Assembly: GCA_030149205.1 (NCBI GenBank)
Contig: JASBSB010000004.1
Coordinates: forward strand, 30,001-62,000
Length of the DNA: 32,000 bases
Direction: 5' to 3'
Source of the DNA: Candidatus Heimdallarchaeota archaeon
GTDB taxonomy: Archaea; Asgardarchaeota; Heimdallarchaeia; Heimdallarchaeales; Kariarchaeaceae
The notes below the pieces were generated by a model. It saw only the letters and a program-made list of their open reading frames with translations. It had not been told where the DNA came from and ran no database searches. Shown one piece after another: positions 1 to 27,370 of the stretch. The translations under genes and the position numbers were made by a program. Each line of letters opens with the position of its first letter. The first letter of the stretch is position 1.

Positions 1-191
1 AAAGAAAGAGCAGCTCCAAAAAACATTCCACCCAAACCAGTCAAATATTTGGATGCAGAGGTAACTGGGAGTACTAAACCAGATATGAAACTCATTACAT
101 CTATAAGAGCATATGAGATATCTATAGGTGTCGTATTGGACTCTGGTATTCTGGTGGTTTCTGCTGAAAATTCGTTGAAGTGTAAAAACAC
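1..191 (-). CDS. Partial cassette ORF (toxin-CT-like hydrophobic tail), runs off the left edge
   Basis: Not in the ORF track. Manual translation from GTG at 191 gives VFLHFNEFSAETTRIPESNTTPIDISYALIDVMSFISGLVLPVTSASKYLTGLGGMFFGAALS, open to base 1. It starts with the same VFLH as the degenerate leader at 11481. Confidence 0.4.
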   Translation of the reverse strand, partial: MFLHFNEFSAETTRIPESNTTPIDISYALIDVMSFISGLVLPVTSASKYLTGLGGMFFGAALS

Positions 192-308
192 TAATGATTT
201 TCTATTAAAATATTTTTTTTAAGCAGAAGGTCTGGGTCGTTCTAAGATTTTCAGTAGAAAAAAAGATCGTTAAACCAATGTTTTTAATATCGTTAAAATT
301 ATCTATTC

Positions 309-929
309 TTAAATTGAGGGGACAAATCTAACTACAATAAAATACATCGAAAAATAAATTAAATGTATCCAAAGATAGTTACTAATCTCAAATTCTGGGT
401 ACTTAGATGAAACGAACTCCCAGAGTAAAAATCCAGGGTATTTTGATCTTATACATCCCACAGCTTCCCTTTCAATATTGCTTTGAATGTAATTGCCAAA
501 GAAACGATAGCCTAATGCTAAGATGGCTGTAAAAGGTAACCAAAAAAAACTAAGAGCTGGTAAAACGATAACATTCCCTAGTGATATCAGATTATTAAGA
601 ATATTAGAAAAATACAACCAAAACAAAACAATGACAGGAAGGTAAACAAAGATTAGGTGAAAACTTACAAAACCGAAGAATTTTCCACGAGTGCTCACTT
701 CACACTTTATTACCTCCAAGTATCCCAAACTCTTGTTAACCAGAAACAATAGAAAAAAAAGACTAATAGACAACAGGATAAAAATCGCAGTCAAAGTAAA
801 TTGTTTGTTATAATTCACACCTTGATCATTTTGAAACAACTCAGTCAACAATCTAAGGAATATTACAATCGCTATTGTTAGCTCTACAATCAACGTGCTA
901 CCTAAAATAATAATTCTTTGTGAATTCAT
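309..929 (-). CDS. Multi-TM membrane protein, putative immunity partner of 930..2102
   Basis: 206 aa with several hydrophobic segments. Its ATG directly abuts the upstream stop (TAAATG). Confidence 0.75.
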   Translation of the reverse strand: MNSQRIIILGSTLIVELTIAIVIFLRLLTELFQNDQGVNYNKQFTLTAIFILLSISLFFLLFLVNKSLGYLEVIKCEVSTRGKFFGFVSFHLIFVYLPVIVLFWLYFSNILNNLISLGNVIVLPALSFFWLPFTAILALGYRFFGNYIQSNIEREAVGCIRSKYPGFLLWEFVSSKYPEFEISNYLWIHLIYFSMYFIVVRFVPSI

Positions 930-2102
930 TTAAACTTGGACATCTCCTGCAATCAGTCTGTAGACAATTACTAACAAATAGTGGTAATAAATCATTAAAG
1001 TGAAGTAACTAAATAGGTCCGGGATCAAACTTATTGTCATAAATGAGGTGACAAACCCAGAACCAACATCTGCAGATAAGCGTATAGCTATTGGTGTTAA
1101 ATACACGATAAGTGTTGTGATTATTCCAGGTAGTATCTTACTTGAAGCCCAACTGGGAAATAGATTAGAAATTGTACCCTCAGGATTTGCAAGGAAGGGA
1201 ATTAGATTCGACAGTAAATAGCCCCCTATTTTTGCTAAAGATGGTGCCATAGTTAATCCCAATATTCCAAATGAGCTCGCAAGTAAGAGCTGTAACAGAG
1301 CTAATGCGACAACACTTCCGCGGTGATAATATGCCATCCATCTTGCTTCCTCTGGTGATATTTGAATTATGTAAAATAAATTCAACAATGTCTGAGTGAC
1401 AATTGAGACAAGACCAATTCTCTTTGCCTCAAGTGAAATCGGGGTAAGACCATAACCTGATGGCTTTGATGGTGCAACTAGCATGGAAAAGGCTAAAAAT
1501 TCAATTACTAAGTTCAAGGCAAAGAATACAAAGGAATTAATCTGTGGATTTACACCTAATGTCTCTGGTAGCTCTATTCTAGGAAACAAATAAGGTGTAA
1601 GAATACGAAATTCTTCAACACCATCAAAGTTTAAAACCAAATCTAGAGGAGGGGTAATATCCATCTTGATAAAACGAGTTATTCCAGCAAATGTTATTAT
1701 ACCCCCATTACTTTGAGTTGCCACATTTATTGAATACTGAGCGCTGATGGTGTAAAATATGGTGTGTAACAGATTAATAAAAAAACTTTTGACATCTTCT
1801 ACAATTGGTAGGAGTATATTGTTGGCGATGAACTCTCCAGCCTCCTTTACCCCGTCGACGGTGACGCCGTCCTTGATGGTCTGTAGGGCTCTGACTGTGA
1901 AGGTGAAGAACTGGCTCAGCGCTTCCACCAGGGTCGCCCCAGGCTTGCCGATCAGCCCCATCACCCACAGGTTCTGCTGCCAGTTGTCATCCTCATCAAT
2001 ATGTTCAGCAACAAATGGGTGGGTTACCATAGAATTAATTACCACGTTAAATGATTCCTGATGGGTACAAGAATACACAAACCTATTATTCCTTAATATC
2101 AT
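930..2102 (-). CDS. Cassette ORF: leader + conserved anchor + variable hydrophobic C-terminal domain (putative polymorphic toxin CT)
   Basis: Contains VYSCTHQESF, WQQNLWVMGLIGKPGATLV and LQTIKDGVTVDGVKEAG, then several TM-like helices. Probable start is GTG at 2078. Confidence 0.75.
   Translation of the reverse strand: MILRNNRFVYSCTHQESFNVVINSMVTHPFVAEHIDEDDNWQQNLWVMGLIGKPGATLVEALSQFFTFTVRALQTIKDGVTVDGVKEAGEFIANNILLPIVEDVKSFFINLLHTIFYTISAQYSINVATQSNGGIITFAGITRFIKMDITPPLDLVLNFDGVEEFRILTPYLFPRIELPETLGVNPQINSFVFFALNLVIEFLAFSMLVAPSKPSGYGLTPISLEAKRIGLVSIVTQTLLNLFYIIQISPEEARWMAYYHRGSVVALALLQLLLASSFGILGLTMAPSLAKIGGYLLSNLIPFLANPEGTISNLFPSWASSKILPGIITTLIVYLTPIAIRLSADVGSGFVTSFMTISLIPDLFSYFTLMIYYHYLLVIVYRLIAGDVQV
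1806..1985 (-). repeat. GC-rich anchor repeat copy
   Basis: Matches the copies at 8711, 15661, 18677 and 26482. Carries the 6-nt-shorter T-VDG variant shared with 17588 and 24121. Confidence 0.9.
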
Positions 2103-2114
2103 TTAACTTTATCG
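2057..2114 (-). promoter_or_regulatory. Cassette head: BRE/TATA-like box + leader
   Basis: CGATAAAGTTAAAT, 24 nt from TTAA to GTG TAT TCT TGT ACC CAT CAG. Confidence 0.65.
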
Positions 2115-2214
2115 CACATCTGCGTTCCTATTGTATTATTCTGAGTTGTTTCATTGAAGCTTGTTTTGATCTATACCATAGTTATAGAGCACTTGGTGAG
2201 GTTTCTCCCTCAGG

Positions 2215-2925
2215 TTATTTTCTGGATTTTGGACTGCCTAGGATAGAGTTAAAGGACAGAAAAAACACATCTATTAATCCTATCCCCACCAGTCTAAGCG
2301 CTCCATAGAAGAAGATTGGAGGGGAGTAAACATAATCAAGCAAAACAATGATATAAATCAAAAACCAGAAGAAATAGTAGAAAATATCCCAAAATGTAGG
2401 TGTTTTGTGATTTATTATCTTTAGAAAAGAGAGAAGATACTCTAGCGCTACCAATACTGCAACAATCAATTTAAAAAGAATATCTACTTCGAAAAAGTAG
2501 CTAAGCACAAAAAGGAATGCAGTGCCTGCCAATCTTGTTGTCAACAATATGATCCTGTCTCTTTCCATATTATCAAAAAATCGAAAATCAAAGTTTAAAG
2601 AGGGTTCAGTGGCAATATCATATAAAAAGAAAATAGCCAAATAAAGTATCCATGCGCTTTGTGAATCTATTATTTCAGACAATGCCATCAGCATCACAAT
2701 ATAAATAAAAATAATACCAGAGAAAAAAGGAAACTGAATATTTTTCCTCAATTTATCATTGTTCTTATAAAAACTGTAGCCTTTTGACAAAAGCATGACG
2801 ATAAGAATTCCCCAGATTAAGTTTGTACTTACGGAAGGTTCAACCAAAAGATGTATGGGATATAATATCATGGCTAAACTTGACCTTATGTACAAATTAA
2901 GATTTAAGAACTGCTCTGAATTCAT
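2215..2925 (-). CDS. Multi-TM membrane protein, putative immunity family I
   Basis: Paralog of 3583..4326, 17904..18671 and 24709..25488: NxxLR..YP, SK, D..S/TD/E, R..LF.LS, WD and IDxF motifs align. Confidence 0.8.
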   Translation of the reverse strand: MNSEQFLNLNLYIRSSLAMILYPIHLLVEPSVSTNLIWGILIVMLLSKGYSFYKNNDKLRKNIQFPFFSGIIFIYIVMLMALSEIIDSQSAWILYLAIFFLYDIATEPSLNFDFRFFDNMERDRIILLTTRLAGTAFLFVLSYFFEVDILFKLIVAVLVALEYLLSFLKIINHKTPTFWDIFYYFFWFLIYIIVLLDYVYSPPIFFYGALRLVGIGLIDVFFLSFNSILGSPKSRK

Positions 2926-2930
2926 GTGTC

Positions 2931-3305
2931 TTACACCGCTGAGGAAAATCTTTTCAATAAGAATGTAACACCCAGAAATATAAAGGGTAATAAAATACCT
3001 GAAATAAAGCCTTTATCCCAAGTTCCTGTTTGGGCAACAGGATCTGTTTTTCCGAACCTATCCATGAGACCATAAGTTATAAGTTCAGAAATACTTATCA
3101 CTGTTATCCACGATTTCATTACTTGTGTAAGCTCTGCTTCCACAACATTATCGAAGAAATCATCAATTGCAGTTAGCACGAGAAGCCCCCTAGCAGTCAT
3201 CTTAACCAAGAGCGACTCCTTCTTCACTACATCAGTAACTGAATCTGCATCAGGAATCACCTCATTTCCTTTACCACCAAACAAAAACTGTTTTGCTTTG
3301 TACAC
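2931..3305 (-). CDS. N-terminally truncated toxin-CT tail (FGKxDP...FSSAV family)
   Basis: Aligns with the last ~120 aa of 4330..5457 and 25481..27325 (DDFFDNV, DRFGKTDP, FSSAV). Confidence 0.75.
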   Translation of the reverse strand: MYKAKQFLFGGKGNEVIPDADSVTDVVKKESLLVKMTARGLLVLTAIDDFFDNVVEAELTQVMKSWITVISISELITYGLMDRFGKTDPVAQTGTWDKGFISGILLPFIFLGVTFLLKRFSSAV

Positions 3306-3582: not shown

Positions 3583-4326
3583 TTAATTTGAACGTGAAAT
3601 CTTGAATGGACTTAGAGCAAATTTAGGGTTTAAACAGAATATTTCAATCATAATTATATAAAACACACCCTGAATTACGTAAAATAGCTCAGAATGAGAA
3701 TCAACATACTCAAGAATAATCATGAGATAAATTATGAACCAACTTGCAAAATAAAATATTTCCCAGATTGAGAGTTGAGATGGTTTTTTCTTAAGCAACA
3801 CGCTTACTAAGTATGAAACAGAAATTAGTAATATCAGCCCAATTCTTACCTGAGTGACTAAATGGGGAAGGAAGCTCATAAGAAAAAGGGTTAACACCCC
3901 TAAAACCCTAAAATTCAACATAATAAGATTGGTTTTATAAGACCAGAAATTTTTGTCAACTACTAAAACAATTTCTGATTTTTGATAGTCACTAAGAATA
4001 TCAAAGTAGAAAGCGAACCCCAAGAAAAATAGCCAAGAAAGGTAGTTACTTGAGACAAGAGATTGTCCAGCTATATAAAGCCATGGAAAAAAAGACATTG
4101 CATAAACAAGCTTAACATCTAATCTAAGATATTTAACCCATTTATTTCTAAATTTAATTCTAAAATAGTACAAGCTATAGGTCTTGGAGATTATGAAAAA
4201 TACAATAATACCCCACAAAACAATCTGACGGAGGGGATGTTCATAAAATAAATAGACTGGGTAGATCGTCAGGGTTAGGATGGTTCTCAAATAGAAATTT
4301 AATGAAACAAAGAGCTCTGTTTTCAT
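3583..4326 (-). CDS. Multi-TM membrane protein, putative immunity family I
   Basis: 247 aa, paralog of 2215..2925. Starts 3 nt after the stop of 4330..5457. Confidence 0.8.
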   Translation of the reverse strand: MKTELFVSLNFYLRTILTLTIYPVYLFYEHPLRQIVLWGIIVFFIISKTYSLYYFRIKFRNKWVKYLRLDVKLVYAMSFFPWLYIAGQSLVSSNYLSWLFFLGFAFYFDILSDYQKSEIVLVVDKNFWSYKTNLIMLNFRVLGVLTLFLMSFLPHLVTQVRIGLILLISVSYLVSVLLKKKPSQLSIWEIFYFASWFIIYLMIILEYVDSHSELFYVIQGVFYIIMIEIFCLNPKFALSPFKISRSN

Positions 4327-4329
4327 AAT

Positions 4330-5457
4330 CTACACCGCAGATGAAAATATTTTCAAAGTCCAAGTGACTAATAGAAGGACGGTTGGTAAAACAATAGGAG
4401 ATAAGAACTTTTTGTCCCCAAATCCTATTTTTGCCTGTGGGTCAGTTTTACCAAATTTATCCATCAATGCATAGGTTACTACTTCTGAAACACCAATAAC
4501 AGCCAACCATGAGTACATAATGGGTGTTAAGCTCGCATTTATCACATTGTCATAAAAATCATTCACTTGGGCTAAAAAGACAGCTAAAGTATATCCTACC
4601 TTTGCAGCTGGTGTATACTTCTGAGTTGATTGCTTTTCAATTACATCCCTTTCAATCTTTTGATTTTTGCCTTTAAAAATTGTTTTTAAGGACTTTCCTG
4701 TTTCATAAATTAGAAAAGATAATGGTAGTATAAACTTCAATGCTGAGAGCCAGGCTAATAAGAGTTTATCAAATTCATCCAAGTCAGATTTCGTCCAAGG
4801 ATTCAGGTTTCCAGGTGTGACTCGGTTCCTTTCTCGAATCATAATTAGAACACTAAAGAGCAAAACAATAAGACCAGAAACCCGTCCAATCACTGAGCCT
4901 ATCATCATGACCAAGGGCCCACCGGGCATCCAGCCAGTCTTCTGTGACAATGCTTGCAAGATGTATCCTGCGTTAAGAAGGTTTAACCCAATTCCCTGTG
5001 CCCACACAAGGCTGTCGATGCTGTCTGTAGCGGGAGAGGGCGTCTCAGCTCCGAGCACTATTTCAAGCAACACCTTGAGTAAATCCATCTCAATTGACTT
5101 TTGGCCAACACTCAGTCTTATAGTCGAGGTGCCCACGAGCAGCACATCAATGTTGACAGTGACTCCATCAATGTACGATGTCACACCGACACCCGTTTGA
5201 GTTGTGACCGTGTGATGCCCAATGGACAGTTCTTCAGGCATCTGAAATATAGCTGTGATCGTTTTTCGGATCATAGAAACCAGCGCTTCCATTATTGGTT
5301 TGATCACACTGTTCACAAGAAAATCACTAATTACCTTGACCCTAGGGACGTAAACACCTTCCCTGAATACCTCTAGATTAATAAAAGAGTAGCTGTAGTC
5401 ACTTTTACTTGTAAATGACTTCTGATGGAGGCAAGGATACACATATCTGATATACAT
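4330..5457 (-). CDS. Cassette ORF: leader + toxin-CT of the FGKxDP family
   Basis: YVYPCLHQKSF leader. Clear paralog of the C-terminal ~340 aa of 25481..27325 (DSLVWAQGIGL, RERNR, NPWTKxDLDEFDKL, DKFGKxDPQA). Probable start is GTG at 5442. Confidence 0.8.
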   Translation of the reverse strand: MYIRYVYPCLHQKSFTSKSDYSYSFINLEVFREGVYVPRVKVISDFLVNSVIKPIMEALVSMIRKTITAIFQMPEELSIGHHTVTTQTGVGVTSYIDGVTVNIDVLLVGTSTIRLSVGQKSIEMDLLKVLLEIVLGAETPSPATDSIDSLVWAQGIGLNLLNAGYILQALSQKTGWMPGGPLVMMIGSVIGRVSGLIVLLFSVLIMIRERNRVTPGNLNPWTKSDLDEFDKLLLAWLSALKFILPLSFLIYETGKSLKTIFKGKNQKIERDVIEKQSTQKYTPAAKVGYTLAVFLAQVNDFYDNVINASLTPIMYSWLAVIGVSEVVTYALMDKFGKTDPQAKIGFGDKKFLSPIVLPTVLLLVTWTLKIFSSAV

Positions 5458-5477
5458 TTAAGTCATTTAAGTTTATT
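5421..5477 (-). promoter_or_regulatory. Cassette head: BRE/TATA-like box + leader
   Basis: CAATAAACTTAAAT, 24 nt to GTG TAT CCT TGC CTC CAT CAG. Confidence 0.65.
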
Positions 5478-5833
5478 GTACATGCTTACATTGTCGTTTC
5501 ACCCAGATTTAAACGATTTACCTTTATAACAAATATCAAATCCTTTTGATTTATCGAGAAGTCCAGACTCAACGGAAGAAATAACTAAAGATTTCTGACA
5601 ATTAAAATAGATCAATATAAATTTCCTGAATTAAATTTGTTATTCAATTTATAACACCGCTTTTCTATTTTTTACACTGATAATTGTCCGCAAAAGTGTT
5701 AAATAATAGTATTTTGCAAAAATCCTTATTTGTTCTTTTGTTTGTTCTTCTGTATCTCTGCCTTTACAATTTTTGCATATTCAGGAGATGATAGCAAACC
5801 AAACAAAAAAATAAAAATTATTGCATTCCCTAA

Positions 5834-6334
5834 TTAGAAGAGAAATATACTAGATGAAAGATTACTGTTAAATGTACCAAAGATCAAAGTATACAGAAAA
5901 TTGCCTGGGAGAGCATCACAGGTGTCAATGCTACTGTAAATGTTACAAGAAAGAATTGTCTGTCCCACTATCAAATAACCAAACTCTATCATGTAAACAG
6001 CTCCTAAAATCAGATATTTTGTTCTTTCTACTGAATTATCACCATTATCAAGGATTGTGGTAGAATAAAGCAAGAAAGATGATAAGATTAAAGCAAAGCC
6101 AAATGTTATACTAAATAGCACTATGGTTAAAGATAAAGACCCCCTATCCCTTAACTGCCAAATCCAAGGAAAAAATGAAGGTGTAAGAAGGACAGCAGGT
6201 AGGATCAGGGACCAGTTTAACCATCTTATCAGATGATTCTGCCAATACTCAAACCTTAAAATTCCTGTGAAGAAAGATGTGAGCAAAATCAGCAGAAAGA
6301 TGAAAAGACTCAAATCTCTCAATAATCCAATCAC
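5834..6334 (-). CDS. Membrane protein, putative orphan immunity
   Basis: 166 aa, about 4 hydrophobic segments. GTG start overlaps the TGA of 6331..6585 (GTGA). Confidence 0.65.
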   Translation of the reverse strand: MIGLLRDLSLFIFLLILLTSFFTGILRFEYWQNHLIRWLNWSLILPAVLLTPSFFPWIWQLRDRGSLSLTIVLFSITFGFALILSSFLLYSTTILDNGDNSVERTKYLILGAVYMIEFGYLIVGQTILSCNIYSSIDTCDALPGNFLYTLIFGTFNSNLSSSIFLF

Positions 6335-6585
6335 CAGTAAATCACTCCATCATTAATCCTTATATTGTGGAATTGATACTTTAAATATGCAAAATATCCT
6401 ATCAAAAGGGCAATTAGTAAATTTAATGCATAGCTCATAGGTGAAAAAGCGGCTATTGAAGTTATTATCCCAGCTATGCTGTAGATAGCAATAAATGAAA
6501 AGTCTCCAATCATTGGACTCGAAATCTCAACTAACAAGTATGACACTTTAACATCACCCTCGTTGATTTTCCTTTGGATAGACAA
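6331..6585 (-). CDS. Small hydrophobic ORF, possible toxin-CT tail remnant
   Basis: 84 aa with two hydrophobic helices, coupled to the downstream membrane gene as in other cassettes. No leader seen. Confidence 0.45.
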   Translation of the reverse strand: MSIQRKINEGDVKVSYLLVEISSPMIGDFSFIAIYSIAGIITSIAAFSPMSYALNLLIALLIGYFAYLKYQFHNIRINDGVIYW

Positions 6586-7711
6586 CCAAATAGACTGGTG
6601 GTAAGTTTTCCCTTTCTTTCACATATATGGCATATGGCATCCCATGATCATCAATTTCCTTAGGAATTGGGAGGTCAATCCCATCTATCTGTCCATACAG
6701 CTCAAATTCAGATCGAAGGGTTTCATCAAGTCCCTGATACTCTGTGACCAGAATATATTTATAGTCAAGGGTTTGAAAGAACAAATCATCATTGAAATTT
6801 AATGGGTTATAGCGAAGATCTAATAGCAAACCTTTGTTTCCTTGGAAATCAGTTGACATGATTTTTGTGATATTGTTATGCTTTAGATCAAAATATCTTA
6901 TATAATTACCATTGACCCCAAACCTTGGAACTTTGGTAAGAGTAAGGTGAGAAAGGATCAGAACAGGTTCAGATTTGAACCTTGAGAATTTTAAGTATCG
7001 GACTATGATTGTGAGAATCCTGATTAGGGGAAAATAATAGTTTATCAAAAGAATTGTTTTGCTTTGATTTGCTGCCTTTGACTCATTTCTTGTGCTTAGA
7101 ATGAAATCCCGCAATCTTATACTCTGAATGAAATCAATTTGTTGCTCAGCTAAAAATTTTCTAAAGCTAATGCTATCTAACAATGAATTTTTCCAATAGA
7201 AATAAAGAATGACATCAAGGAACAAGATTGAACAACCGACCAAGAGAGAAATTTTTGTTAAGTCAATAGAAATTGTGGTTTCTTTAAGATATCTAAGTAC
7301 CACAATAGTAACAATGACTGATGATACAGACATAAAGGTAATTAACACTGTCCAACGTGAATTAAAGATTGACTTGTAAAAGTTTAAAGGGGTTACGAGT
7401 GTTAGGGCAAATCCAAATGGTACCATGTAAATAGAGAAGAACATCATTATAAGATAATAGGTATCCCCCCAGCTATACTGTATTAAAGAGAAACTCTGAT
7501 TCAATGAAGCAGCACCAATTACTATAGTTTGAGCAACCACTTGCATCAGCAATGAGAGATTTAGTACGCGAAATTCACTAAAGTTTGAGATAAATGGATA
7601 GTCAGTCGCAGCATTTGAATTGATTCTGTTGTAGAAATCATTGATTAACGCAAAAGTGTAAAATTCCGAAAGATAGTCTGCTTCAATCTTAATAGGTTTT
7701 TGTCCATCCAC
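6554..7711 (-). CDS. Multi-TM protein with C-terminal leucine-rich repeats, putative immunity family II
   Basis: N-terminal TM helices followed by LRR-like units: LILSHLTLTKVP, IRYFDLKHNNITKI, LLLDLRYNPLNF. SD-like GAGGT upstream. Confidence 0.75.
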   Translation of the reverse strand: MDGQKPIKIEADYLSEFYTFALINDFYNRINSNAATDYPFISNFSEFRVLNLSLLMQVVAQTIVIGAASLNQSFSLIQYSWGDTYYLIMMFFSIYMVPFGFALTLVTPLNFYKSIFNSRWTVLITFMSVSSVIVTIVVLRYLKETTISIDLTKISLLVGCSILFLDVILYFYWKNSLLDSISFRKFLAEQQIDFIQSIRLRDFILSTRNESKAANQSKTILLINYYFPLIRILTIIVRYLKFSRFKSEPVLILSHLTLTKVPRFGVNGNYIRYFDLKHNNITKIMSTDFQGNKGLLLDLRYNPLNFNDDLFFQTLDYKYILVTEYQGLDETLRSEFELYGQIDGIDLPIPKEIDDHGMPYAIYVKERENLPPVYLVVYPKENQRG

Positions 7712-10650: not shown

Positions 10651-10670
10651 CATTTAAGATGGGTTCACCC

Positions 10671-17233: not shown

Positions 17234-17261
17234 CCCAGACGCTGATCAACGCTATAAGGTT

Positions 17262-20272: not shown

Positions 20273-20372
20273 ATATTCATGATATATTATATCCCAGTCT
20301 TCTCTTTCTGATTTGATCCCATTGGAATCGGAACTGGATAATGAGGGTTGTTTGTTTATCCTACATCATCTC

Positions 20373-20621: not shown

Positions 20622-20659
20622 ATCACCTATATAATAAAGAGAAGAGGTTCTTACATTCT

Positions 20660-21235
20660 TTAGAATTGAAAAACGATGGATGCTAAATTTATCACCAGAA
20701 ATGAGGTAAAATAAATGTAAACCAGAATTTCTGAAAAATGACCTCTGTTAGAGACTTTAGATTGTTTCTCTTTATCCTGAATGAGCCCATTATCAGCTCC
20801 CCTTTTAGATGAGATTCTTGAGAGAACAAATTCTAACAAAAGGTAAAGAATTACTGTTGTGACTTCCACGACACCAAGAAAAATCAACTGCTTAGCTATA
20901 AGATCAAATAAGACTCCACTCCTTGAGTAGAAATAGATTATAATAAAAGGGGTCATTAATAAAATAACTATCAATGATCCAAGATATATTGTCCTTTCTA
21001 ACTCAGATCTTAGTGTTTTTGTCTTGTAATAGATCATTTTTAGTGAAAATGGTAATATTGAAAGATTCAGACCAACCAAAAAAAACAACAAGCTTATAGA
21101 ATAAAAGACCATGTTGAAAGTCGAAAGTACGAAGAATAGTGCCGAAAAGAAGTACAGAAAGAGGTTTGCTTTCAATAAGAGTTCAAGTGTCTTTTCTGAA
21201 TATGAGGGGTTACATTCTTTTATTAAAAATTTCAT
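20660..21235 (-). CDS. Membrane protein, putative immunity
   Basis: 191 aa, about 5 hydrophobic segments, GAGGT SD-like motif, follows 21260..21517. Confidence 0.7.
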   Translation of the reverse strand: MKFLIKECNPSYSEKTLELLLKANLFLYFFSALFFVLSTFNMVFYSISLLFFLVGLNLSILPFSLKMIYYKTKTLRSELERTIYLGSLIVILLMTPFIIIYFYSRSGVLFDLIAKQLIFLGVVEVTTVILYLLLEFVLSRISSKRGADNGLIQDKEKQSKVSNRGHFSEILVYIYFTSFLVINLASIVFQF

Positions 21236-21259
21236 TGTATTTACCTCAGAGTTTAAAAT

Positions 21260-21517
21260 TCACAACTGTAGCACCTGTGTTGTAAGGGTGAGGAAAATCA
21301 TTTCCGGTATTTTCACAATAATGGTATGAACTCCTTCCCCTATGGGTCTGATGATATTGTTGGAATTGAACTCACCAGCGTATTTCACCCGCTCGTTAAA
21401 GTTGGTGATACAGTCCTTGATGGTCTGCCGAAATACATCTGTCATTGAAAAACGAGTGAATGATCCAGCATCAAATGAATCCTGATGGAAACAGATGTAC
21501 ACATATCTATCATCCAT
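21260..21517 (-). CDS. Truncated cassette ORF (leader + degenerate anchor)
   Basis: YVYICFHQDSF and QTIKDCITNFNERVKYAGEF..NNIIRPI. Probable start is GTG at 21502. Confidence 0.55.
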   Translation of the reverse strand: MDDRYVYICFHQDSFDAGSFTRFSMTDVFRQTIKDCITNFNERVKYAGEFNSNNIIRPIGEGVHTIIVKIPEMIFLTLTTQVLQL

Positions 21518-21538
21518 TAATCTTATTTAAGTTTATTT
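21481..21538 (-). promoter_or_regulatory. Cassette head: BRE/TATA-like box + leader
   Basis: AAATAAACTTAAAT, 24 nt to GTG TAC ATC TGT TTC CAT CAG. Confidence 0.65.
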
Positions 21539-22029
21539 CCCAAATTTTAGTTATTAGAAATTCTAAATCTTTGTGTGGTTTTATTTTTTGTTTAAGTTTG
21601 AGTACTTCATAACCTTTTGCCATTGCAGGGAATAAAAAGCTCAACCAATGACCAGAGATGCAAACACCAAGAAATCCAGCAATTACCAGATCATTTCGGG
21701 GAGGAAAGCCAAACCTAATCTACCACTGCTGCTATACCCGCTTTCAACAAATTCTGTAGTGTTTGCGGTGTTGTTTTTATGATAGGAAATGACTATTTGT
21801 TAGTGGGTCTGGGAACTGTTTTTTATATTAGTTACCTTGTCACAGGGATCTGTGATGATCTTTCAGGAAATTTCCGCATCCATTGACCTTCACTACATTT
21901 AACTACAATGTTTCATCAAGTTTTTTCTCTTTTAGTTAGGAAATGCAGTTTAGCTTGATTAATATAATTTTATTCGGATCACTAACCTAGTAAAGCCTAA
22001 AAAGACAACAATGTGTTGTAAGCTAGTCT

Positions 22030-22509
22030 TCATTGAGCGACTTCAATATTGACGCCAAATATTTCTATTATGTCATCCGAAATTTGAGTTGCCAAATCCA
22101 ATAGCACTTCTGAATCTCGATCTTGAAAGATACTTGCTTTATTCTCGTTCAACTCAGCAATAAGATCATAATAATCTAAATTTTGCTCAATAATAAATTT
22201 TTTAATCTTATCTATTGAAAGAATGTTCTTTGGTGATTCAGAGTTAAAGATCGATTTTTCTGGAATATTGATTATTATTTTCATTCCAGTTGATAAACAA
22301 ACGGGTAGAATTATCAGGATAATGAACACCCCAATGATCTCAACATTCAAAAGGATAGGATTGATTGAAGGCACGAATAATAGAACATAGATATTTGCAA
22401 GGATACTTATTAAAACGAAAAAGAAAAATATTTGAATGCTGTTTTTTCTGCAATTCCGAGCAGAAAAATAAATGATTTTTTGGTCTTTTCTATTTCTTCC
22501 TAACACCAT
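22030..22509 (-). CDS. Two-TM membrane protein, putative immunity
   Basis: 159 aa, GAGGAG SD-like motif, follows the cassette ORF ending at 22533. Confidence 0.65.
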   Translation of the reverse strand: MVLGRNRKDQKIIYFSARNCRKNSIQIFFFFVLISILANIYVLLFVPSINPILLNVEIIGVFIILIILPVCLSTGMKIIINIPEKSIFNSESPKNILSIDKIKKFIIEQNLDYYDLIAELNENKASIFQDRDSEVLLDLATQISDDIIEIFGVNIEVAQ

Positions 22510-22532
22510 AAATTTCTCCTCACTTATTAACC

Positions 22533-23090
22533 CTAGTAAAATACAAGTACCAGGAGTATCCTATATGCTTTTGGTTCCCAACTCATCCGAGCATTTAACA
22601 TTAACAACGTTGCAATAGCTCCCATAGATATAGTCCAAGTACCTCCAAGCAGTAATGTATGTTCAAATACAACTTGGTTTATGTCTAAGGTTTCATAAAT
22701 TAAATCTGTGGATGAAATCAATGGACTTTTAATTATAAATACATTATTATTTACGTTAAATTGTATGCCTTTGATTACTCCTTGTACATCAATGGTTAAA
22801 ACTAGAGTATTTTGCTTTTTAACACAAATAAAATTGTTCAAAAGTTCAACAACATTTCCATCTAACATTGAAATTGTTTTGAAAATAGCAAAAAGCATTG
22901 TTTTTACAGTTATTGCTATAAATTGATGAATTACCTCAAGGACTGCATTCATAATATAACTACCGGCTGCTTTCACCCCATCGACGAAGCTGGTGACGCT
23001 GCTCCTAATACTCTGAAAGTTACTATACATGGTAATTGAGTGCTTTTCAGTTTCGAAATCAAATGACAGCTGATGGAGACAGCAGTACAC
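22533..23090 (-). CDS. Truncated cassette ORF (leader + partial anchor + start of CT)
   Basis: VYCCLHQLSF and SVTSFVDGVKAAGSYIM. The start is taken as GTG 23090; the track's extension to 23354 overlaps 23146..23913. Confidence 0.6.
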   Translation of the reverse strand: MYCCLHQLSFDFETEKHSITMYSNFQSIRSSVTSFVDGVKAAGSYIMNAVLEVIHQFIAITVKTMLFAIFKTISMLDGNVVELLNNFICVKKQNTLVLTIDVQGVIKGIQFNVNNNVFIIKSPLISSTDLIYETLDINQVVFEHTLLLGGTWTISMGAIATLLMLNARMSWEPKAYRILLVLVFY

Positions 23091-23125
23091 AGAAGTAATA
23101 TCCAATGATTTCATATAAAGTTTCC
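23069..23125 (-). promoter_or_regulatory. Cassette head: BRE/TATA-like box + leader
   Basis: AGGAAACTTTATAT, 24 nt from TTAT to GTG TAC TGC TGT CTC CAT CAG. Confidence 0.6.
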
Positions 23126-23145
23126 TCATTCCAGTTGAAGTATGA

Positions 23146-23913
23146 CTAATGACTCTTTCTATCACTAGAAAATACAAATTCGTTGGTGGTTGATGACCCT
23201 TCATCATTTTTAGAAGGTGAGTGATTGACATCCTCTGAAGCATTTGAATGTTGAATTGAGAACTGAAATGGGTAACTTCGTAAGATAGGAACTCCATTAA
23301 TCTCAGAGTTAAAAAATGGCTCAGCGAGGATTTTAAGCAAAAGTAGTAATGCAAACAACATGATTGTGAGTATCAAAAGTGTGTTCGTTGTAAGATAGAC
23401 ACTTAATTTTTCATTTTGCATCCTCCATCCAGAAGAGAGTAATAGAGATAAAAGCATATAAATTCCGGATAACAAAGAAGAGACATATAACCCCTGTCTC
23501 TTCTCCAAGTTGGATCGCAAATTGGTTTTAACTTTAATTACCTTGTAGATGACACCAGTTCCGATAAGGAACGGACAAAATATTGCAAGATAAACAGTGT
23601 AAATATTTATCCATTCTGCATAGGTACTAAAAAGCAGAAATTCGAATGGATAAAGCAGGAACAACAACAAAACGCTGATCTTTAGCAGTATTTGGTCTGG
23701 TAGCTCGATGAGTGTATAGAAAACATAGAAATTAGAAAAGTTAGATAATCCCCACCACATTAGAATGAGAATGCCCTGTAAAGTTAGAGCTACTATCCCT
23801 TGGTGCCTTACTGCATAAAATAATTCCCAAGTCAAGCTGTATACGAAAACCACAGTTAGAGCAGACAGTGTTAGGACAATGTTCTGTTTGTAATATTTAA
23901 GAAACGCTTTCAT
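23146..23913 (-). CDS. Multi-TM membrane protein, putative immunity
   Basis: 255 aa, about 6 TM segments, AAAGGTG upstream, 10 nt after the stop of 23924..24295. Confidence 0.7.
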   Translation of the reverse strand: MKAFLKYYKQNIVLTLSALTVVFVYSLTWELFYAVRHQGIVALTLQGILILMWWGLSNFSNFYVFYTLIELPDQILLKISVLLLFLLYPFEFLLFSTYAEWINIYTVYLAIFCPFLIGTGVIYKVIKVKTNLRSNLEKRQGLYVSSLLSGIYMLLSLLLSSGWRMQNEKLSVYLTTNTLLILTIMLFALLLLLKILAEPFFNSEINGVPILRSYPFQFSIQHSNASEDVNHSPSKNDEGSSTTNEFVFSSDRKSH

Positions 23914-23923: not shown

Positions 23924-24295
23924 TTAAAATGATTGGTTGTCTATCATCGCATACATCACTGCTAAAACAACATGGTAAAATGTGTAAAACATCATGTATG
24001 TATTAGACTGAATCAAGATATTCCCTGAGGAATCCACAGTCACACTTACTGAAATTATTGTTTCAACAATCTGTAACAGGCCAAGTATTGCTGAGCGATA
24101 CACATTCATCATTTCTTCTGCAATAGGCAGGGGTGTATTGTTGGCTATGACCTCCCCAGCAGCCTTGATCCCGTCGACGGTGACGTCTCCCCTGATGGTC
24201 TGCAGGGCTGTGAAAGTGAAGCTACTGTGTGTTCCAGTTTCATAGGATTCCTGATGAAGGCAAGGGTACACATACCTGATATACATTAAAACCAT
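23924..24295 (-). CDS. Internally deleted cassette ORF
   Basis: YVYPCLHQESY and FTALQTIRGDVTVDGIKAAGE..NN, ending MFYTFYHVVLAVMYAM. Probable start is GTG at 24271. Confidence 0.65.
   Translation of the reverse strand: MVLMYIRYVYPCLHQESYETGTHSSFTFTALQTIRGDVTVDGIKAAGEVIANNTPLPIAEEMMNVYRSAILGLLQIVETIISVSVTVDSSGNILIQSNTYMMFYTFYHVVLAVMYAMIDNQSF
24121..24222 (-). repeat. Short anchor repeat copy
   Basis: Matches the 1806..1910 copy, T-VDG variant. Confidence 0.85.
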
Positions 24296-24308
24296 TTAAG
24301 TTTTTCTC
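24250..24308 (-). promoter_or_regulatory. Cassette head: BRE/TATA-like box + leader
   Basis: Near-identical to 10591..10650. Confidence 0.65.
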
Positions 24309-24356
24309 ACATTTAAGATAGGTTCACCCCTCTCCCATCATCACTGGAGAGTCTTT

Positions 24357-24708: not shown

Positions 24709-25488
24709 TTACACAGCTGAGACAACTTTTATTTTGCAAAATGAACAAATCTTGACTGTGAGCCAGTCAAGATACGCAGCAAAAACCAATATTCCAGCCT
24801 TAGAAACTACAAATACTACTAAAACACCTGATCCTCTGTCCGAGATGAAATTTTGTCCCAGAAATGCCAGTGCTATTAAGTTTTCAACAAAAATTAATGC
24901 TATAACACCATAAGCGATTAAGTCCCAACTTCCCAAATCAGATAACAGTTTATCCTGAAAAATGTTAACAAAAAATAGGAGAATAAACAGAAGCAATGCA
25001 GTTATCTTTACTGTATCCCATTCATTGTCTAGGAAACTCAAAACAAAAAGAGAAATTAAGATAATCAATCGAGCAAAAAACAACCTATATTTTCTTACCT
25101 CAAATTTTTTCGATTCAGAGTTAAACACCTTTCTAAGCACAGGATCATCAGAAAAAATATCTGAGGCAATTATGGCATAGATAGCTAGTATCATCAAAAA
25201 TAAATTTCTACTAATTATTACACCCAAAAACCCTAGAATTGAATAGCTGTAATATACCAAATAGTCTTTATCTCTTTCAGTAATTTTATGGAGAAGTATT
25301 CGACTAATTGTTTTAGAAATTATTACTAAGATCATCATTCCTCCTAGGATACCAAACCCCTCCCAGCTTAGGAAAGAGACCCTGTTTTGGAGTTGAATGT
25401 AAAGCATTATTGGAAACAGCAACATAATTACTTGTCGCAGAAAAAAATTCGTTAGACGCAAATTTTCTGGTTCCATAATATCACACAA
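24709..25488 (-). CDS. Multi-TM membrane protein, putative immunity family I
   Basis: 259 aa, paralog of 17904, 3583 and 2215. Likely start is ATG 25476, just after the toxin-like ORF stop. Confidence 0.8.
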   Translation of the reverse strand: MCDIMEPENLRLTNFFLRQVIMLLFPIMLYIQLQNRVSFLSWEGFGILGGMMILVIISKTISRILLHKITERDKDYLVYYSYSILGFLGVIISRNLFLMILAIYAIIASDIFSDDPVLRKVFNSESKKFEVRKYRLFFARLIILISLFVLSFLDNEWDTVKITALLLFILLFFVNIFQDKLLSDLGSWDLIAYGVIALIFVENLIALAFLGQNFISDRGSGVLVVFVVSKAGILVFAAYLDWLTVKICSFCKIKVVSAV

Positions 25489-27325
25489 CTGATGAAAACA
25501 GTTTTAGCACCTCTTTGAATATAAAAAACAAAAAGGGTAAAACCACAAGAGAGTACCCTTTTTTGCTAAAGAAGGTTGCTGCTGCCTGAGGGTCTCCTTT
25601 TCCAAATTTATCCAGCACTGCATAGCTGACGATCTCTCCACTTGCTACGCCTGCGAGCCAGAAGTACATCGTTGGTGTCAGGGGATTATCAATCACATTG
25701 TCCTTAAAATCGTTGTAGCTCGAGATGAAAATATATAAGAGTTTAGCTAAACTCGTCTTAGCTGTTAATTTGTTCTCTTTTGCGAACTCTTCTAAGACCT
25801 TTTTGAATCCATTTTTACCCTCCTTGACTATCGTTTTGACTGCCTTTCCAGCATTATACACTGTATATGAGAATGGTAAAACAAAGATCAGCGCAGAAAG
25901 CCATCCAACCATAAGTTTGTCGAATTCATCAAGGTCTTCCTTTGTCCATGGGTTAAGGTTTACGTCAGCAAAGAGATACCTGTTCCTCTCTCTGAATATA
26001 TTTATGAAAGTCAGTAATAGTACGGCTTGTGATGCAATAAAGAGCCCTAGGGACGTAAGGGTGGCACCCAAGGGGCCCAACACAGGTACAGCCCCATTGG
26101 TCTTTTGTGATAACGCACTGGCAATATAGGCTGCATTAAGCAGAGAGAGCCCTATCCCCTGTGCCCAAACAAGGGAATCAGCACTTGACCCAGCGGGAGA
26201 AAGGGTCTCACTGCCGATGATCAGCTCTAAAATGGTCTGGAATAGATCAACTGTGGTTGTTTTGCCCCCAACCACCATTTTCATTGTTGATACACCAACA
26301 AGCTCTATGGTTATATCTAACACCTTGTTATCGATGTATGAGGTGAGACGGAGGCCATTTGGGATTAGCACGGTGTTATATCCGGGAGAGGTCTCACCAA
26401 GTGTTAAAAACAACGCATTAACGACATTTCGAAAGATAGAGATCAGACCCTCCATTATAGGCTTAATCACCTTGTTGACGAAGAACTCTCCGGCGAATTT
26501 CACCCCATCGACGAAGCTGGTGACGCCGTCCTTGATGGTCTGCAGGGCTGTGGTACTCATTGTCCAAAGCTCACTGACAAAGTCCACCAGGGTCGCCCCA
26601 GGCTTCCCAATGATGCTCATCACAGTGTTCCACAGGTTCTGCTGCCAGCTCCCCGCAACATCGATGTAGGTGTCATAGATGTGGTCAGCAAAGACCAGGA
26701 TGGCAACCTTGGCGACAGCCACATAGTCCAGGCCTGTATTGGGGTCATACCTCAGATTGTTTGGATGGTCAAGGTTCAGCTCAGTGATCAAGGCGTCGTC
26801 CTTCAGGATCACGTTTGCCAGCCGGTTCTGCTGGGGCTCCTCCTTGTACCAGTTGATGATGCGCTCCACTGAGCCAAAGCCATAGTCGTTGATCTTGCCC
26901 CAGACGAAGTCAAAGAGCTTGTACTCCCTGTAGATGACCACATTTCCAATCTTGATGTCATAGCCAAGCCAGCTGTTCAGGATGCTCTTGGTGTTGGCCC
27001 TCAGGCTGTTGAAGTCCTGCACCACCTTCTCCAGCAGCAGAGAGACATCAAAGACCCGGTCCTTGGTGGGTTGTGTCTCACTGGCAGTCTTCATGGAGGC
27101 ACGCGCAGTTGGTGGCACCTGTGCCGCCTGCTTCTCATTGTCCGGGCTCCAGCTGAAGCCTGTCCCCTTGATCAGGGCTGTCAGCACCGAGTGGTTGGCA
27201 GCCAACTGGTGACGTGGGGCAAACTCAAGGGTTTCCTGATGTTTTAGGATTTGAGCTCTGTATCGATTTAACCCGAGCTCAAAGGGTGTAGAATTGCCGC
27301 ATTGAACTCTGTATCTTTGATGCAT
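25481..27325 (-). CDS. Longest cassette ORF: extended GC-rich conserved region + anchor + FGKxDP-family CT (first module of the array)
   Basis: 614 aa. Region ~26480-27240 is visibly GC-rich and contains the full anchor. The C-terminal part is paralogous to 4330..5457 and 2931..3305. No signal peptide seen. Confidence 0.8.
   Translation of the reverse strand: MHQRYRVQCGNSTPFELGLNRYRAQILKHQETLEFAPRHQLAANHSVLTALIKGTGFSWSPDNEKQAAQVPPTARASMKTASETQPTKDRVFDVSLLLEKVVQDFNSLRANTKSILNSWLGYDIKIGNVVIYREYKLFDFVWGKINDYGFGSVERIINWYKEEPQQNRLANVILKDDALITELNLDHPNNLRYDPNTGLDYVAVAKVAILVFADHIYDTYIDVAGSWQQNLWNTVMSIIGKPGATLVDFVSELWTMSTTALQTIKDGVTSFVDGVKFAGEFFVNKVIKPIMEGLISIFRNVVNALFLTLGETSPGYNTVLIPNGLRLTSYIDNKVLDITIELVGVSTMKMVVGGKTTTVDLFQTILELIIGSETLSPAGSSADSLVWAQGIGLSLLNAAYIASALSQKTNGAVPVLGPLGATLTSLGLFIASQAVLLLTFINIFRERNRYLFADVNLNPWTKEDLDEFDKLMVGWLSALIFVLPFSYTVYNAGKAVKTIVKEGKNGFKKVLEEFAKENKLTAKTSLAKLLYIFISSYNDFKDNVIDNPLTPTMYFWLAGVASGEIVSYAVLDKFGKGDPQAAATFFSKKGYSLVVLPFLFFIFKEVLKLFSSVV
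26482..26695 (-). repeat. GC-rich anchor repeat, reference copy
   Basis: VFADHIYDTYIDVAGSWQQNLWNTVMSIIGKPGATLVDFVSELWTMSTTALQTIKDGVTSFVDGVKFAGEFF. Confidence 0.9.
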
Positions 27326-27370
27326 GGACAGATACTATAAAATAAAGACTGGAGCTATATAAGTTTATCC
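27317..27370 (-). promoter_or_regulatory. Cassette head (divergent variant)
   Basis: GGATAAACTTATATA upstream of TAT CTG TCC ATG CAT CAA. A second HQETLEF occurs at ~27225-27245. Confidence 0.55.

What the first reader, a model, noticed from the sequence alone, without database searches (positions are those of the whole stretch)
1..27370. At least 27-kb archaeal array of polymorphic membrane-toxin-CT / immunity-like cassettes
Seen: at least 14 co-oriented modules, each with a shared head, a piece of one conserved GC-rich coding anchor, a divergent hydrophobic C-terminus, and a coupled multi-TM gene (TAAATG, ATGA, GTGA junctions). Established: orphan CT/immunity arrays carrying a repeated pre-toxin segment occur in Rhs, CdiA and MafB systems and feed recombinational toxin switching. 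Inference: this is such a system with membrane-acting C-termini and membrane immunity proteins, in an archaeal genome. I do not recognise the anchor as any named delivery domain.
Basis: partly seen in the sequence, partly recalled or inferred. Interest (0 to 1): 0.92.

Follow-up and report, generated by a model that had tools for sequence, protein, structure and literature searches.

The report
Asgard surface-protein tail cassette array
An Asgard archaeon carries a 42-kb row of self-promoted gene pairs, each a spare, front-truncated tail of a giant lectin-like surface protein plus a tightly coupled membrane-protein gene; the layout matches bacterial swappable toxin/immunity loci but is built from undescribed parts, and toxicity is unproven.

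Summary
The window holds 13 co-oriented minus-strand modules. The array continues past the window start to about 42 kb, and a second, inverted array lies 37 kb away. Each module has an 80-nt promoter/leader "head" and a 5'-truncated piece of one conserved helical domain (the "anchor"). A variable hydrophobic tail and a tightly coupled polytopic membrane gene follow.

In related genomes the anchor sits near the C-terminus of 2,000-2,700-aa proteins with signal peptides and LamG domains. Each of those genes is followed by a membrane-protein gene. This genome has no such carrier; its longest copy (614 aa) is itself a head-led cassette.

New here:
- an "ETL[GS]" motif about 85 aa after the constant/variable junction, in 37 of 44 junction-bearing relatives;
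- a clear recombination mosaic inside the anchor;
- 4 of 13 tails are full length, while almost all partner genes are intact;
- weak, recurrent similarity of the anchor to phage tape-measure proteins.

No toxin, immunity or delivery family matches anything. The toxin/immunity reading is therefore an analogy, about 50% likely. The scan has noted comparable Asgard arrays on other DNA. I rate it a new variant of polymorphic toxin-like systems.

The parts
25481..27325 (-). Module 1: longest cassette (614 aa). Degenerate head leader, full ~265-aa anchor (aa ~66-330), beta-meander, ETLS motif, tail family A.
   Evidence: Homology to the giant proteins of relatives begins at about aa 48.
27326..27400 (-). 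Degenerate head (BRE/TATA-like box) in front of module 1
   Evidence: Alignment A1 and sequence read.
26482..26695 (-). GC-rich anchor core (WQQNLW ... TSFVDGVKxAGEF). It ends at the constant/variable junction and is the recombination tract.
   Evidence: (D1, D7, D8).
24709..25488 (-). Partner family A (255-259 aa, ~8 helices in the model), coupled to module 1
   Evidence: No homologue outside this genome.
23924..24316 (-). Module 2: head (24233-24316) plus a 123-aa truncated tail ORF that ends before the ETL motif
   Evidence: An 81%-identical copy lies in the second array.
23146..23913 (-). Module 2 partner (255 aa, polytopic), 10-nt gap with a GGTG box
   Evidence: 58% identical to the second-array copy; dN/dS 0.39.
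22030..23129 (-). Module 3: weak head (23058-23125). The tail ORF is cut 53 aa after ETL (22533..23129) and is followed by a 159-aa membrane ORF in another frame.
19421..21545 (-). Module 4: head (21464-21545), 85-aa remnant (21260..21517), then membrane ORFs 20660..21235 and 19421..20272
17904..19037 (-). Module 5: long head plus a 103-aa anchor-only ORF (18668..18979), overlapping (ATGA) a family A partner (17904..18671). The tail is deleted.
   Evidence: (D9, D10).
16240..17783 (-). Module 6: head (17703-17783), 167-aa truncated tail ORF, 186-aa membrane ORF (16673..17233), and an 80-aa fragment of partner family C (16240..16482)
12846..16053 (-). Module 7: long head (15982-16053), full cassette of 469 aa (14578..15987, ETLG plus a 269-aa tail), coupled 274-aa partner (13761..14585), and a further 271-aa membrane ORF
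   Evidence: (D5, D10).
10698..12790 (-). Module 8: decayed head/leader remnant (12506..12718) followed by small membrane ORFs (12088..12390, 11581..12057, 10698..11240)
9348..10657 (-). Module 9: head (10574-10657), 144-aa truncated tail ORF, and an ATGA-coupled 285-aa membrane protein
7717..9102 (-). Module 10: long head (9031-9102) plus a full-size cassette split by one in-frame TAA at 8098-8100 (312 + 127 aa). The anchor core is 92-100% identical to module 1, and the 5' part is 85-98% identical to module 7.
   Evidence: (D1, D5).
5834..7711 (-). Module 10 partner: 385-aa protein with TM helices and a sub-threshold LRR match (6554..7711), plus small membrane ORFs 6331..6585 and 5834..6334
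   Evidence: LRR_8 E 8.4e-4, below cut-off. The paralogue outside the window is 27% identical.
3583..5485 (-). Module 11: head (5408-5485), full cassette of 375 aa with tail family A (46-48% identical to module 1), and a family A partner (3583..4326) after a 3-nt gap
2215..3305 (-). Module 12: head-less 124-aa C-terminal fragment of tail family A (2931..3305) plus an intact family A partner (2215..2925)
309..2123 (-). Module 13: head (2042-2123), full cassette of 390 aa (930..2102, ETLG plus a 211-aa tail), and an abutting (TAAATG) 206-aa membrane partner (309..929)
27464..28366 (+). Neighbouring GC-rich PD-(D/E)XK-type nuclease gene with a 27-nt tandem repeat (28174-28288). Possibly associated with the array; not shown to be part of it.

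Best explanation
The locus is a polymorphic 'tail plus partner' cassette array derived from the 3' end of a giant Asgard surface-protein gene.

Shown:
- Each cassette looks like a self-contained unit. It has a BRE/TATA-like head with a short conserved leader and a 5'-truncated piece of the conserved helical anchor.
- After the junction motif (FVDG-V/I-KAAG-E/Q-F/Y) come a sequence-variable helix and beta-meander, an ETL[GS] motif and a ~185-270-aa hydrophobic tail.
- A tightly abutting or overlapping membrane-protein gene follows.
- Cassettes exchange DNA by recombination inside the anchor.
- Relatives carry the same anchor and tail on 2,000-2,700-aa signal-peptide/LamG proteins.

Inferred:
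- The tail is a membrane-inserting effector of one scaffold with many specificities. It is comparable to the ionophore-type CdiA-CT toxins.
- The partner is its cognate protector in the producer's membrane.
- The anchor supplies the homology for swapping tails onto a carrier gene.
- The heads keep every partner gene expressed.
- This genome lacks the carrier, and only 4 of 13 tails are full length while partners are intact. The array here therefore most likely serves mainly as a protector (immunity) repertoire and a reservoir of tails.
For: Array and heads.

Carrier in relatives: open frames of 2,524, 1,184 and 787 aa around the match. P0001 is 2,508+ aa and P0007 is 2,661 aa, both with N-terminal signal-peptide-like sequences, and P0012 is 1,988 aa. 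All three carry Laminin_G_3, with E-values from 4.6e-19 to 3.7e-44. A membrane gene lies directly downstream of P0007 and P0012.

Recombination mosaic: module 10 is 85-98% identical to module 7 across the head and 5' part. It then switches to 92-100% identity with module 1 for about 120 nt. All pairs then fall to 30-50% (D1 and D5).

Covariation: tail family A is followed by partner family A in 3 of its 4 modules. Partner family A never follows another tail type.

Asymmetric decay: 4 full tails (modules 1, 7, 11, 13), one split by a nonsense codon, and 8 truncated or deleted. Every one of them is still followed by an intact membrane ORF, and only one partner fragment was seen.

Other support:
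- dN/dS is 0.13-0.52 for the five partner pairs that gave an estimate.
- Coupled junctions and ribosome-site-like boxes are present.
- Partners belong to several unrelated families, as expected for independently evolved protectors.
- The family is rare and lineage-restricted: 52 hits among 1.84 billion representatives, and 5 of 11 genomes of the same family against 0 of 29 in the rest of the order.
- In sister species the array is not found beside the fumarase gene that flanks it here.
- The analogy with CDI ionophores and their hydrophobic CdiI comes from PMC11630599. The general cassette logic comes from PMC3482391.
Against: No tail, partner or anchor matches any toxin, immunity or delivery family in Pfam, NCBIfam or PHROGs, and the two models built (tail family A, partner family A) match nothing by Foldseek. 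Both models are of modest confidence (pLDDT 66 and 62).

This genome has no carrier or secretion domain, so no delivery route exists here.

In the giant proteins a C-terminal polytopic tail after a huge ectodomain is exactly what a plain membrane anchor looks like.

The tails share one scaffold and one length class, unlike the mixed enzymatic toxins of classical systems.

Cassettes carry their own promoter-like heads, unlike classical silent orphans.

Truncated tail ORFs also show dN/dS below 1 (0.40-0.70), so some may be functional as they stand.

Covariation partly reflects duplication of whole modules.
Confidence: 0.5

Rival explanations
1. Self/non-self recognition or adhesion-specificity system. 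The polytopic tail of the surface protein and its membrane partner form a strain-specific identity pair, in the manner of Proteus IdsD/IdsE or Myxococcus TraA-type kin recognition. The pair gates cell-cell contact, membrane exchange or fusion and does not kill.
For: The tails are variants of one scaffold of constant length with a conserved ETL[GS] frame. This is typical of specificity variation on a single fold. The carrier in relatives is lectin-rich (LamG), which suits adhesion. Tail and partner are both membrane proteins and co-diversify. VARTIG in Thermococcales is a published archaeal precedent for such an open reading (PMC8416519).
Against: Partners belong to several unrelated families (8-helix family A, family C, TM plus LRR-like, 2-TM plus soluble domain). 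A single recognition mechanism would predict homologous partners. Keeping partners while tails decay fits protection better than pairwise identity. There is no carrier in this genome.
Confidence: 0.2
2. Non-conflict paralogue graveyard. The array consists of duplicated and decaying 3' ends of a lost giant surface-protein gene together with its membrane-anchor accessory genes. Segmental duplication and gene conversion keep it in place, and it has no specific present function.
For: 9 of 13 tails are truncated, split or deleted. The carrier is absent. Modules are duplicated within and between the two arrays. A multi-copy nuclease gene and a GC-rich patch sit beside the array, as in a junk-collecting variable island.
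Against: Heads with BRE/TATA-like boxes stay conserved (15 copies at E<1e-4). dN/dS is below 1 in every pair that gave an estimate. Coupled junctions and ribosome-site-like boxes are preserved. Partner ORFs are intact at family-typical lengths. The same cassette design, with a different head, recurs in another genus.
Confidence: 0.15
3. Derivative of a phage-tail or tailocin tape-measure-like protein, or of another mobile element. The anchor plus hydrophobic tail is a membrane-penetrating tape-measure module, and the array belongs to a viral or mobile-element arsenal, not to a cellular surface-protein system.
For: Members of the family give about 16 hits to 7 PHROG tape-measure families (best E 5e-5). 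Pfam Tape_meas_lam_C scores E 0.07 on the same motif. Among the five sub-threshold hits in the PDB sequence search are FtbJ (the best) and a tape measure protein. An integrase and toxin-antitoxin genes lie beside the P0007 locus.
Against: All hits are below curated or significant levels and fall on one amphipathic helical motif. No other phage family was hit by the window proteins scanned against PHROGs. The carriers have Sec-type signal peptides and LamG domains, not tail proteins. The array is flanked by ordinary genes: fumarase, zf-PARP, DegV and an EamA transporter.
Confidence: 0.05

Closest known systems
Polymorphic toxin systems with orphan CT/immunity cassettes (Rhs, CdiA, MafB), as defined by Zhang et al. 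2012 (PMC3482391)
   Same: In relatives, a large secreted multidomain protein with a conserved pre-C-terminal region and a sharp constant/variable junction. Variable C-termini. A cognate small gene immediately downstream. Downstream cassettes that keep a piece of the conserved region. Evidence of recombination within that region.
   Different: No known trafficking, repeat, releasing-peptidase, toxin or immunity domain. The tails are all one polytopic scaffold. Every cassette has its own promoter-like head and start codon. This genome has no full-length carrier. The organism is an Asgard archaeon, and that paper states classical systems are scarce in archaea.
CDI ionophore toxins CdiA-CT/CdiI (Halvorsen et al. 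2024, PMC11630599)
   Same: A hydrophobic helical C-terminal effector predicted to span the membrane. A hydrophobic, membrane-located cognate protector. Many divergent cognate pairs on one scaffold. In this window, paralogous partners are 19-41% identical within partner family A.
   Different: No CdiB/CdiA two-partner secretion, FHA repeats or VENN motif. Tails are ~185-270 aa with 3-8 hydrophobic segments, against a five-helix bundle. Partners are 160-385 aa and polytopic, against 72-100-aa two-helix CdiI. No activity has been shown.
VARTIG module of Thermococcales (Makarova et al. 2021, PMC8416519)
   Same: An archaeal, lineage-restricted module. It has a large secreted protein whose C-terminal part is hypervariable through recombination, followed by variable downstream genes. 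Its function is open between conflict and self/non-self discrimination.
   Different: VARTIG is built on Ig domains and has no array of promoter-bearing truncated cassettes. Here the variable part is a membrane-embedded tail and the carrier has LamG domains.
Phage tail tape-measure proteins
   Same: Long amphipathic helices with W/F...(I/V)K-type motifs, followed in many cases by hydrophobic, membrane-inserting segments. Weak recurrent profile hits.
   Different: All hits are sub-threshold. No tail genes are present. The proteins are Sec-secreted lectin-domain proteins.

Membership tests
Polymorphic toxin system (Zhang et al. 2012) | Full-length toxin protein with an N-terminal trafficking or secretion domain | tested here: inconclusive
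   Present in relatives: signal-peptide-like N-termini and LamG domains in P0001 and P0007, and LamG in P0012. Absent from this genome with three searches. The assembly is 93.5% complete.
Polymorphic toxin system (Zhang et al. 2012) | Conserved region followed by polymorphic C-termini with a sharp junction | tested here: met
   Identity falls from 92-100% to 30-50% after the FVDGxKAAG motif. Tails are unalignable between most cassettes.
Polymorphic toxin system (Zhang et al. 2012) | The C-terminus is a recognisable toxin domain or is demonstrably toxic | tested here: not met
   No match in Pfam, NCBIfam or PHROGs, and none by Foldseek for the one tail model built. Toxicity itself cannot be tested with these tools.
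Polymorphic toxin system (Zhang et al. 2012) | Cognate immunity gene immediately downstream that covaries with the toxin | tested here: inconclusive
   Adjacency and coupling are met. Covariation is met for family A. Partners match no immunity family, and protection cannot be tested.
Polymorphic toxin system (Zhang et al. 2012) | Stand-alone cassettes that recombine with the main gene | tested here: met
   At least 13 cassettes in the window carry anchor pieces, and there is a mosaic between cassettes. Recombination with a carrier gene is inferred, not seen.
Polymorphic toxin system (Zhang et al. 2012) | Releasing peptidase or pre-toxin processing motif | tested here: inconclusive
   The giants share an N-domain with invariant His and Cys but it has no Pfam or PDB match. 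There is only a language-model lead to Peptidase_C80, carried by 13% of members of a cluster scoring 0.87. The ETL[GS] and VPPxARxSM motifs are candidate sites only.
CDI (CdiB/CdiA/CdiI) | Two-partner secretion, FHA repeats, VENN motif | tested here: not met
   No such Pfam domains in the giants or the cassettes. There is no outer membrane in archaea (established knowledge).
Phage tape-measure protein | Significant profile match and a tail-gene neighbourhood | tested here: not met
   Best PHROG E-value 5e-5 for single members. Pfam scores 13.6 bits against a cut-off of 23. PDB profile hits have E 0.16-1.9. No phage genes were seen in the array.
VARTIG (Thermococcales) | Ig-domain large protein (arCOG07710) | tested here: not met
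   Pfam finds only LamG/pentaxin-type domains in the giants.

The most novel reading that the evidence does not exclude
An Asgard-specific contact system. A giant lectin-bearing surface protein hands a whole polytopic membrane domain, released at the conserved ETL[GS] site, directly into the wall-less membrane of a neighbouring cell. A tape-measure-like helical anchor acts as the insertion device. A genomic library of self-promoted cassettes supplies both new tails and the matching protectors. This would be a new delivery principle for membrane effectors or identity tags in the archaeal lineage closest to eukaryotes.
Probability: 0.2. Interest if true: 0.88.

Novelty: new variant of a known kind. 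Interest (0 to 1): 0.68.

Why it matters
Classical polymorphic toxin systems are reported as scarce in archaea (PMC3482391). Archaeal contact-dependent toxin systems had been predicted but not characterised as of 2021 (PMC8416519).

Asgard archaea live by intimate cell-cell contact, and how their surfaces tell partners from rivals is unknown. This locus offers a concrete, testable set of about 20 tail/partner pairs, a defined constant/variable junction, a conserved candidate processing motif and a recombination signature. All are tied to giant lectin-like surface proteins. If the tails are membrane effectors, this would be a conflict or recognition system of a kind my searches found undescribed for this lineage, built from entirely undescribed domains.

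It also shows a variant design, in which every cassette carries its own promoter and leader. I did not find that design described for the bacterial systems in the papers I read.

Tried and rejected
- Complex prediction of tail family A with partner family A gave no verdict. It is not used either way.
- Structure models of the 614-aa protein (aa 66-614, pLDDT 66) and of partner A (pLDDT 62) gave no Foldseek match in the PDB or in the AlphaFold DB clusters. The fold stays unassigned.
- The protein-atlas search on the 614-aa protein found nothing above 0.75.
- Rfam and tRNA scans of the window were empty. The GC-rich patch is therefore not an RNA gene.
- The search for related loci in genome contigs returned nothing.
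- Word-indexed searches of 5.8 billion proteins with partner A and with tail A found only the window's own proteins.
- I looked for the orthologous locus next to fumarase in same-genus genomes. No array lies there in G001, and the contig ends in G003. A strain-level comparison of cassette content was therefore not possible.
- The idea that the neighbouring nuclease is a dedicated part of the system is weakened. It is multi-copy in relatives (5-9 matches per genome), and of the 26 matches only one sits on a contig that also had an anchor match.
- The caspase-like label for the N-domain of the giants could not be confirmed. One weak lead only.
I found one borderline hit (E 0.001), outside the window.
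- No array protein has a homologue elsewhere in this genome, so no sharing with the other cassette array noted on another contig.
- Literature searches found no description of this family.

Full report
**Where the window lies.** The window is bases 30001-62000 of a 271-kb contig in a 3.3-Mb, 12-contig genome that is 93.5% complete. The genome encodes Ribosomal_S8e and ESCRT-II Vps25, both above the Pfam cut-off. Vps25 matched none of the 14 control prokaryotes. This supports an Asgard archaeon, as earlier notes of this scan also state.

All sizeable ORFs from 309 to 27325 lie on the minus strand. Direct-repeat analysis finds twelve repeat families of two to six copies.

- Heads. An ~80-nt "head" profile built from six copies recovers 15 copies genome-wide at E<1e-4 (best 6.5e-23). 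All lie in this array or in a second, oppositely oriented array at contig positions 94.7-100.8 kb. The head holds a BRE/TATA-like box (GATAAACTTAAATG) and the start of the ORF, with a conserved leader (Y-x-C-x-H-Q-E-S-F). A longer head variant serves three modules, and a degenerate copy precedes the 614-aa ORF itself.
- Anchor. Eleven in-window ORFs match residues ~204-330 of the 614-aa protein. The heads join the anchor at three discrete points, around aa 204, 226 and 256.
- Junctions. Junctions with the downstream gene are tight: TAAATG, ATGA, overlaps of 4-8 nt or gaps of 10 nt or less in 9 of the 13 junctions checked. GGTG/GAGG boxes sit before four of the remaining partner starts.
- Extent. 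I count 13 modules in the window. At least six more lie beyond its left edge, and the array ends next to ordinary genes (zf-PARP, DegV, a PLP enzyme).

**The parent exists, but not here.** Searching relatives with the 614-aa protein places residues ~31-306 at the end of open frames of 2,524, 1,184 and 787 aa. An exhaustive HMMER search of 1.84 billion representatives finds only 52 relatives. They include proteins of 2,661 aa (anchor at 2129-2379) and 1,988 aa.

These giants begin with signal-peptide-like N-termini. Each has a conserved N-domain with invariant His and Cys and LamG-type lectin domains (Laminin_G_3, E 4.6e-19 to 3.7e-44), followed by the anchor and a hydrophobic tail. Each giant gene is followed directly by one or two membrane-protein genes.

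This genome has no trace of the N-terminal ~2,100 residues by three searches. The 614-aa gene is simply the longest head-led cassette. Its homology to the giants starts near aa 48, just before a conserved VPPxARxSM...PTENRVFDV motif.

The family was found in 5 of 11 genomes of the same taxonomic family and in 0 of 29 from the rest of the order. A different genus has the same cassette design with a different head (MGFRIRxVDxLYTLP) and its own TATA-like box.

**Anatomy of the variable part.** The constant/variable junction is the motif FVDG-(V/I)-KAAG-(E/Q)-(F/Y).

Of 44 family members in which this junction was recognised, 37 carry an ETL[GS] motif 78-91 residues later (median 85). It is followed by a tail that is 185-271 aa long in all but three truncated copies. 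Four of the other seven are too short to reach the motif. Chance would give this tripeptide in that span in roughly one protein in ten (my estimate).

The AlphaFold model (pLDDT 66) shows a 67-residue helix across the junction. A well-predicted small beta-meander (pLDDT ~90) and long helices follow.

The "divergent C-termini" are therefore versions of one scaffold, not unrelated domains. ETL[GS] is a second conserved landmark and could be a hinge or a processing site; that is inference.

**Recombination.** Module 10 (7717..9102) is 85-98% identical to module 7 from 70 nt upstream of the start to about 200 nt into the ORF. It then becomes 92-100% identical to module 1 for about 120 nt, while its identity to module 7 drops to 45-65%. 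After that, all pairs fall to 30-50% (D1 and D5).

This is a crossover mosaic inside the anchor. The anchor core is 53-62% GC against a 35% genome. The 3' end of the giant gene in a same-genus relative is similarly GC-enriched, at 0.53-0.57 against ~0.41. This would fit biased gene conversion (inference).

**Tail and partner relations.**

- Tail family A comprises module 1, module 11, the fragment in module 12 and one copy in the second array. It is followed by partner family A in three of those four cases.
- The five family A partners (236-259 aa, ~8 helices in the model) never follow another tail type. Two of them follow anchor-only stubs whose tail has been deleted.
- Partners overall fall into several unrelated families. 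One is a TM protein with a sub-threshold LRR match.
- Neither tail A nor partner A has any relative outside this genome among 5.8 billion proteins.
- No array protein has a homologue elsewhere in the genome.

**Asymmetric decay.** Four in-window tails are full length (modules 1, 7, 11, 13). Module 10 is split by one in-frame TAA; read through, it has the family-typical length of 439 aa. Eight others are truncated before or soon after ETL, or deleted.

All of them are still followed by an intact membrane ORF. Only one partner fragment was seen (16240..16482).

Paralogous partner pairs give dN/dS of 0.13-0.52. The short tail stubs give 0.40-0.70.

**Interpretation.** The architecture mirrors polymorphic toxin loci, whose C-terminal diversity arises by recombination with stand-alone cassettes (PMC3482391). 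The closest functional analogue is the family of CDI ionophore toxins, whose membrane-spanning helical CTs are neutralised by hydrophobic, highly polymorphic CdiI proteins (PMC11630599).

Three features favour a protector role for the partners:
- partners are retained while tails decay;
- partner families are heterogeneous;
- junctions are tight enough for translational coupling.

Five points limit the claim:
1. Nothing matches a known toxin, immunity or delivery family, by sequence or, for the two proteins modelled, by fold.
2. The carrier is missing here.
3. A polytopic C-terminus after a giant ectodomain could be only an anchor.
4. The single scaffold also suits a recognition system.
5. The promoter-bearing heads differ from classical silent orphans.

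I put the effector/protector reading at about 0.5, recognition at 0.2, a functionless paralogue graveyard at 0.15 and a phage-derived element at 0.05.

**Tape-measure signal.** Members of the family give about 16 hits to seven PHROG tape-measure families (best E 5e-5). Pfam Tape_meas_lam_C scores E 0.07 on the same motif. Among the five hits of a profile search of PDB sequences are FtbJ (E 0.16, the best) and a tape measure protein (E 1.9).

All of these are sub-threshold and fall on one amphipathic helix. No phage gene accompanies them. I treat this as a lead for a membrane-insertion role, not as family membership.

**Earlier notes of the scan.** Comparable "tail plus partner" arrays have been noted on other Asgard DNA and elsewhere in this genome. 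Two follow-up reports that overlap or touch this stretch were withheld. I used these notes only as leads and checked what I could.

My literature searches found no published description of this family.

Noticed in passing
window 27464-28366 (+); contig C1:101061-101456; L032:3317-4093: A PD-(D/E)XK-type nuclease gene with a 27-nt tandem repeat (x4.3 at 28174-28288) sits beside the head end of this array. A broken 80%-identical copy sits at the end of the second array. A 42%-identical homologue sits next to a cassette in another genus. The gene is also multi-copy (5-9 matches per genome) in relatives, mostly away from cassettes, so it may be a mobile or island-associated gene and not a recombination factor.
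   Followed up: partly
window ~26000-28400: A GC-rich patch (0.45-0.60 against a genome value of 0.35) covers the anchor half of the 614-aa gene and the nuclease gene. The anchor end of the giant gene in a same-genus relative is also GC-enriched, but in a more distant relative (L036) it is not. Biased gene conversion or foreign origin are both possible.
   Followed up: partly
G000:C1:94069-100780 (+), beyond the window: A second, inverted array holds three head-led cassettes. One pair (97757..98131 plus 98137..98880) is a copy of window module 2, with very different synonymous divergence in the tail stub (dS 0.20) and the partner (dS 0.79). This suggests exchange between the arrays.
   Followed up: partly
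window 6554-7711 (-) and L025:7608-8729 (-): Two paralogous partner proteins combine N-terminal TM helices with sub-threshold leucine-rich-repeat matches (LRR_8 E 8.4e-4; LRR_1 E 0.017).
   Followed up: partly
window 10659-10735 and 24317-24394 (-): The ~80 nt upstream of two heads are 92% identical. They contain two short inverted repeats (GTTCTA...TAGAAC and CTCTCC...GGAGAG), which could be terminators of the preceding unit or regulatory sites.
   Followed up: no
L036:17999-21020 (relative carrying P0007): The giant gene and its partner are followed by a tyrosine integrase and several toxin-antitoxin-type genes (MJ0235-like, TumE, DUF433). In that genome the locus lies in a variable island.
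   Followed up: no
P0001, P0007, P0012 N-terminal ~300 aa (relatives): A conserved N-domain of the giants has invariant His (VAHG) and Cys (H-x-C) residues but no Pfam or PDB match. A language-model search gives weak leads to DUF4347 and Peptidase_C80 clusters. It may be an autoprocessing peptidase.
   Followed up: partly
window 30373-30816 (-) and 31150-31999: A small ORF whose sequence looks like a winged-helix regulator (not scanned against any family library) and two membrane-protein ORFs flank fumarase on the far side. They show no similarity to array proteins.
   Followed up: no
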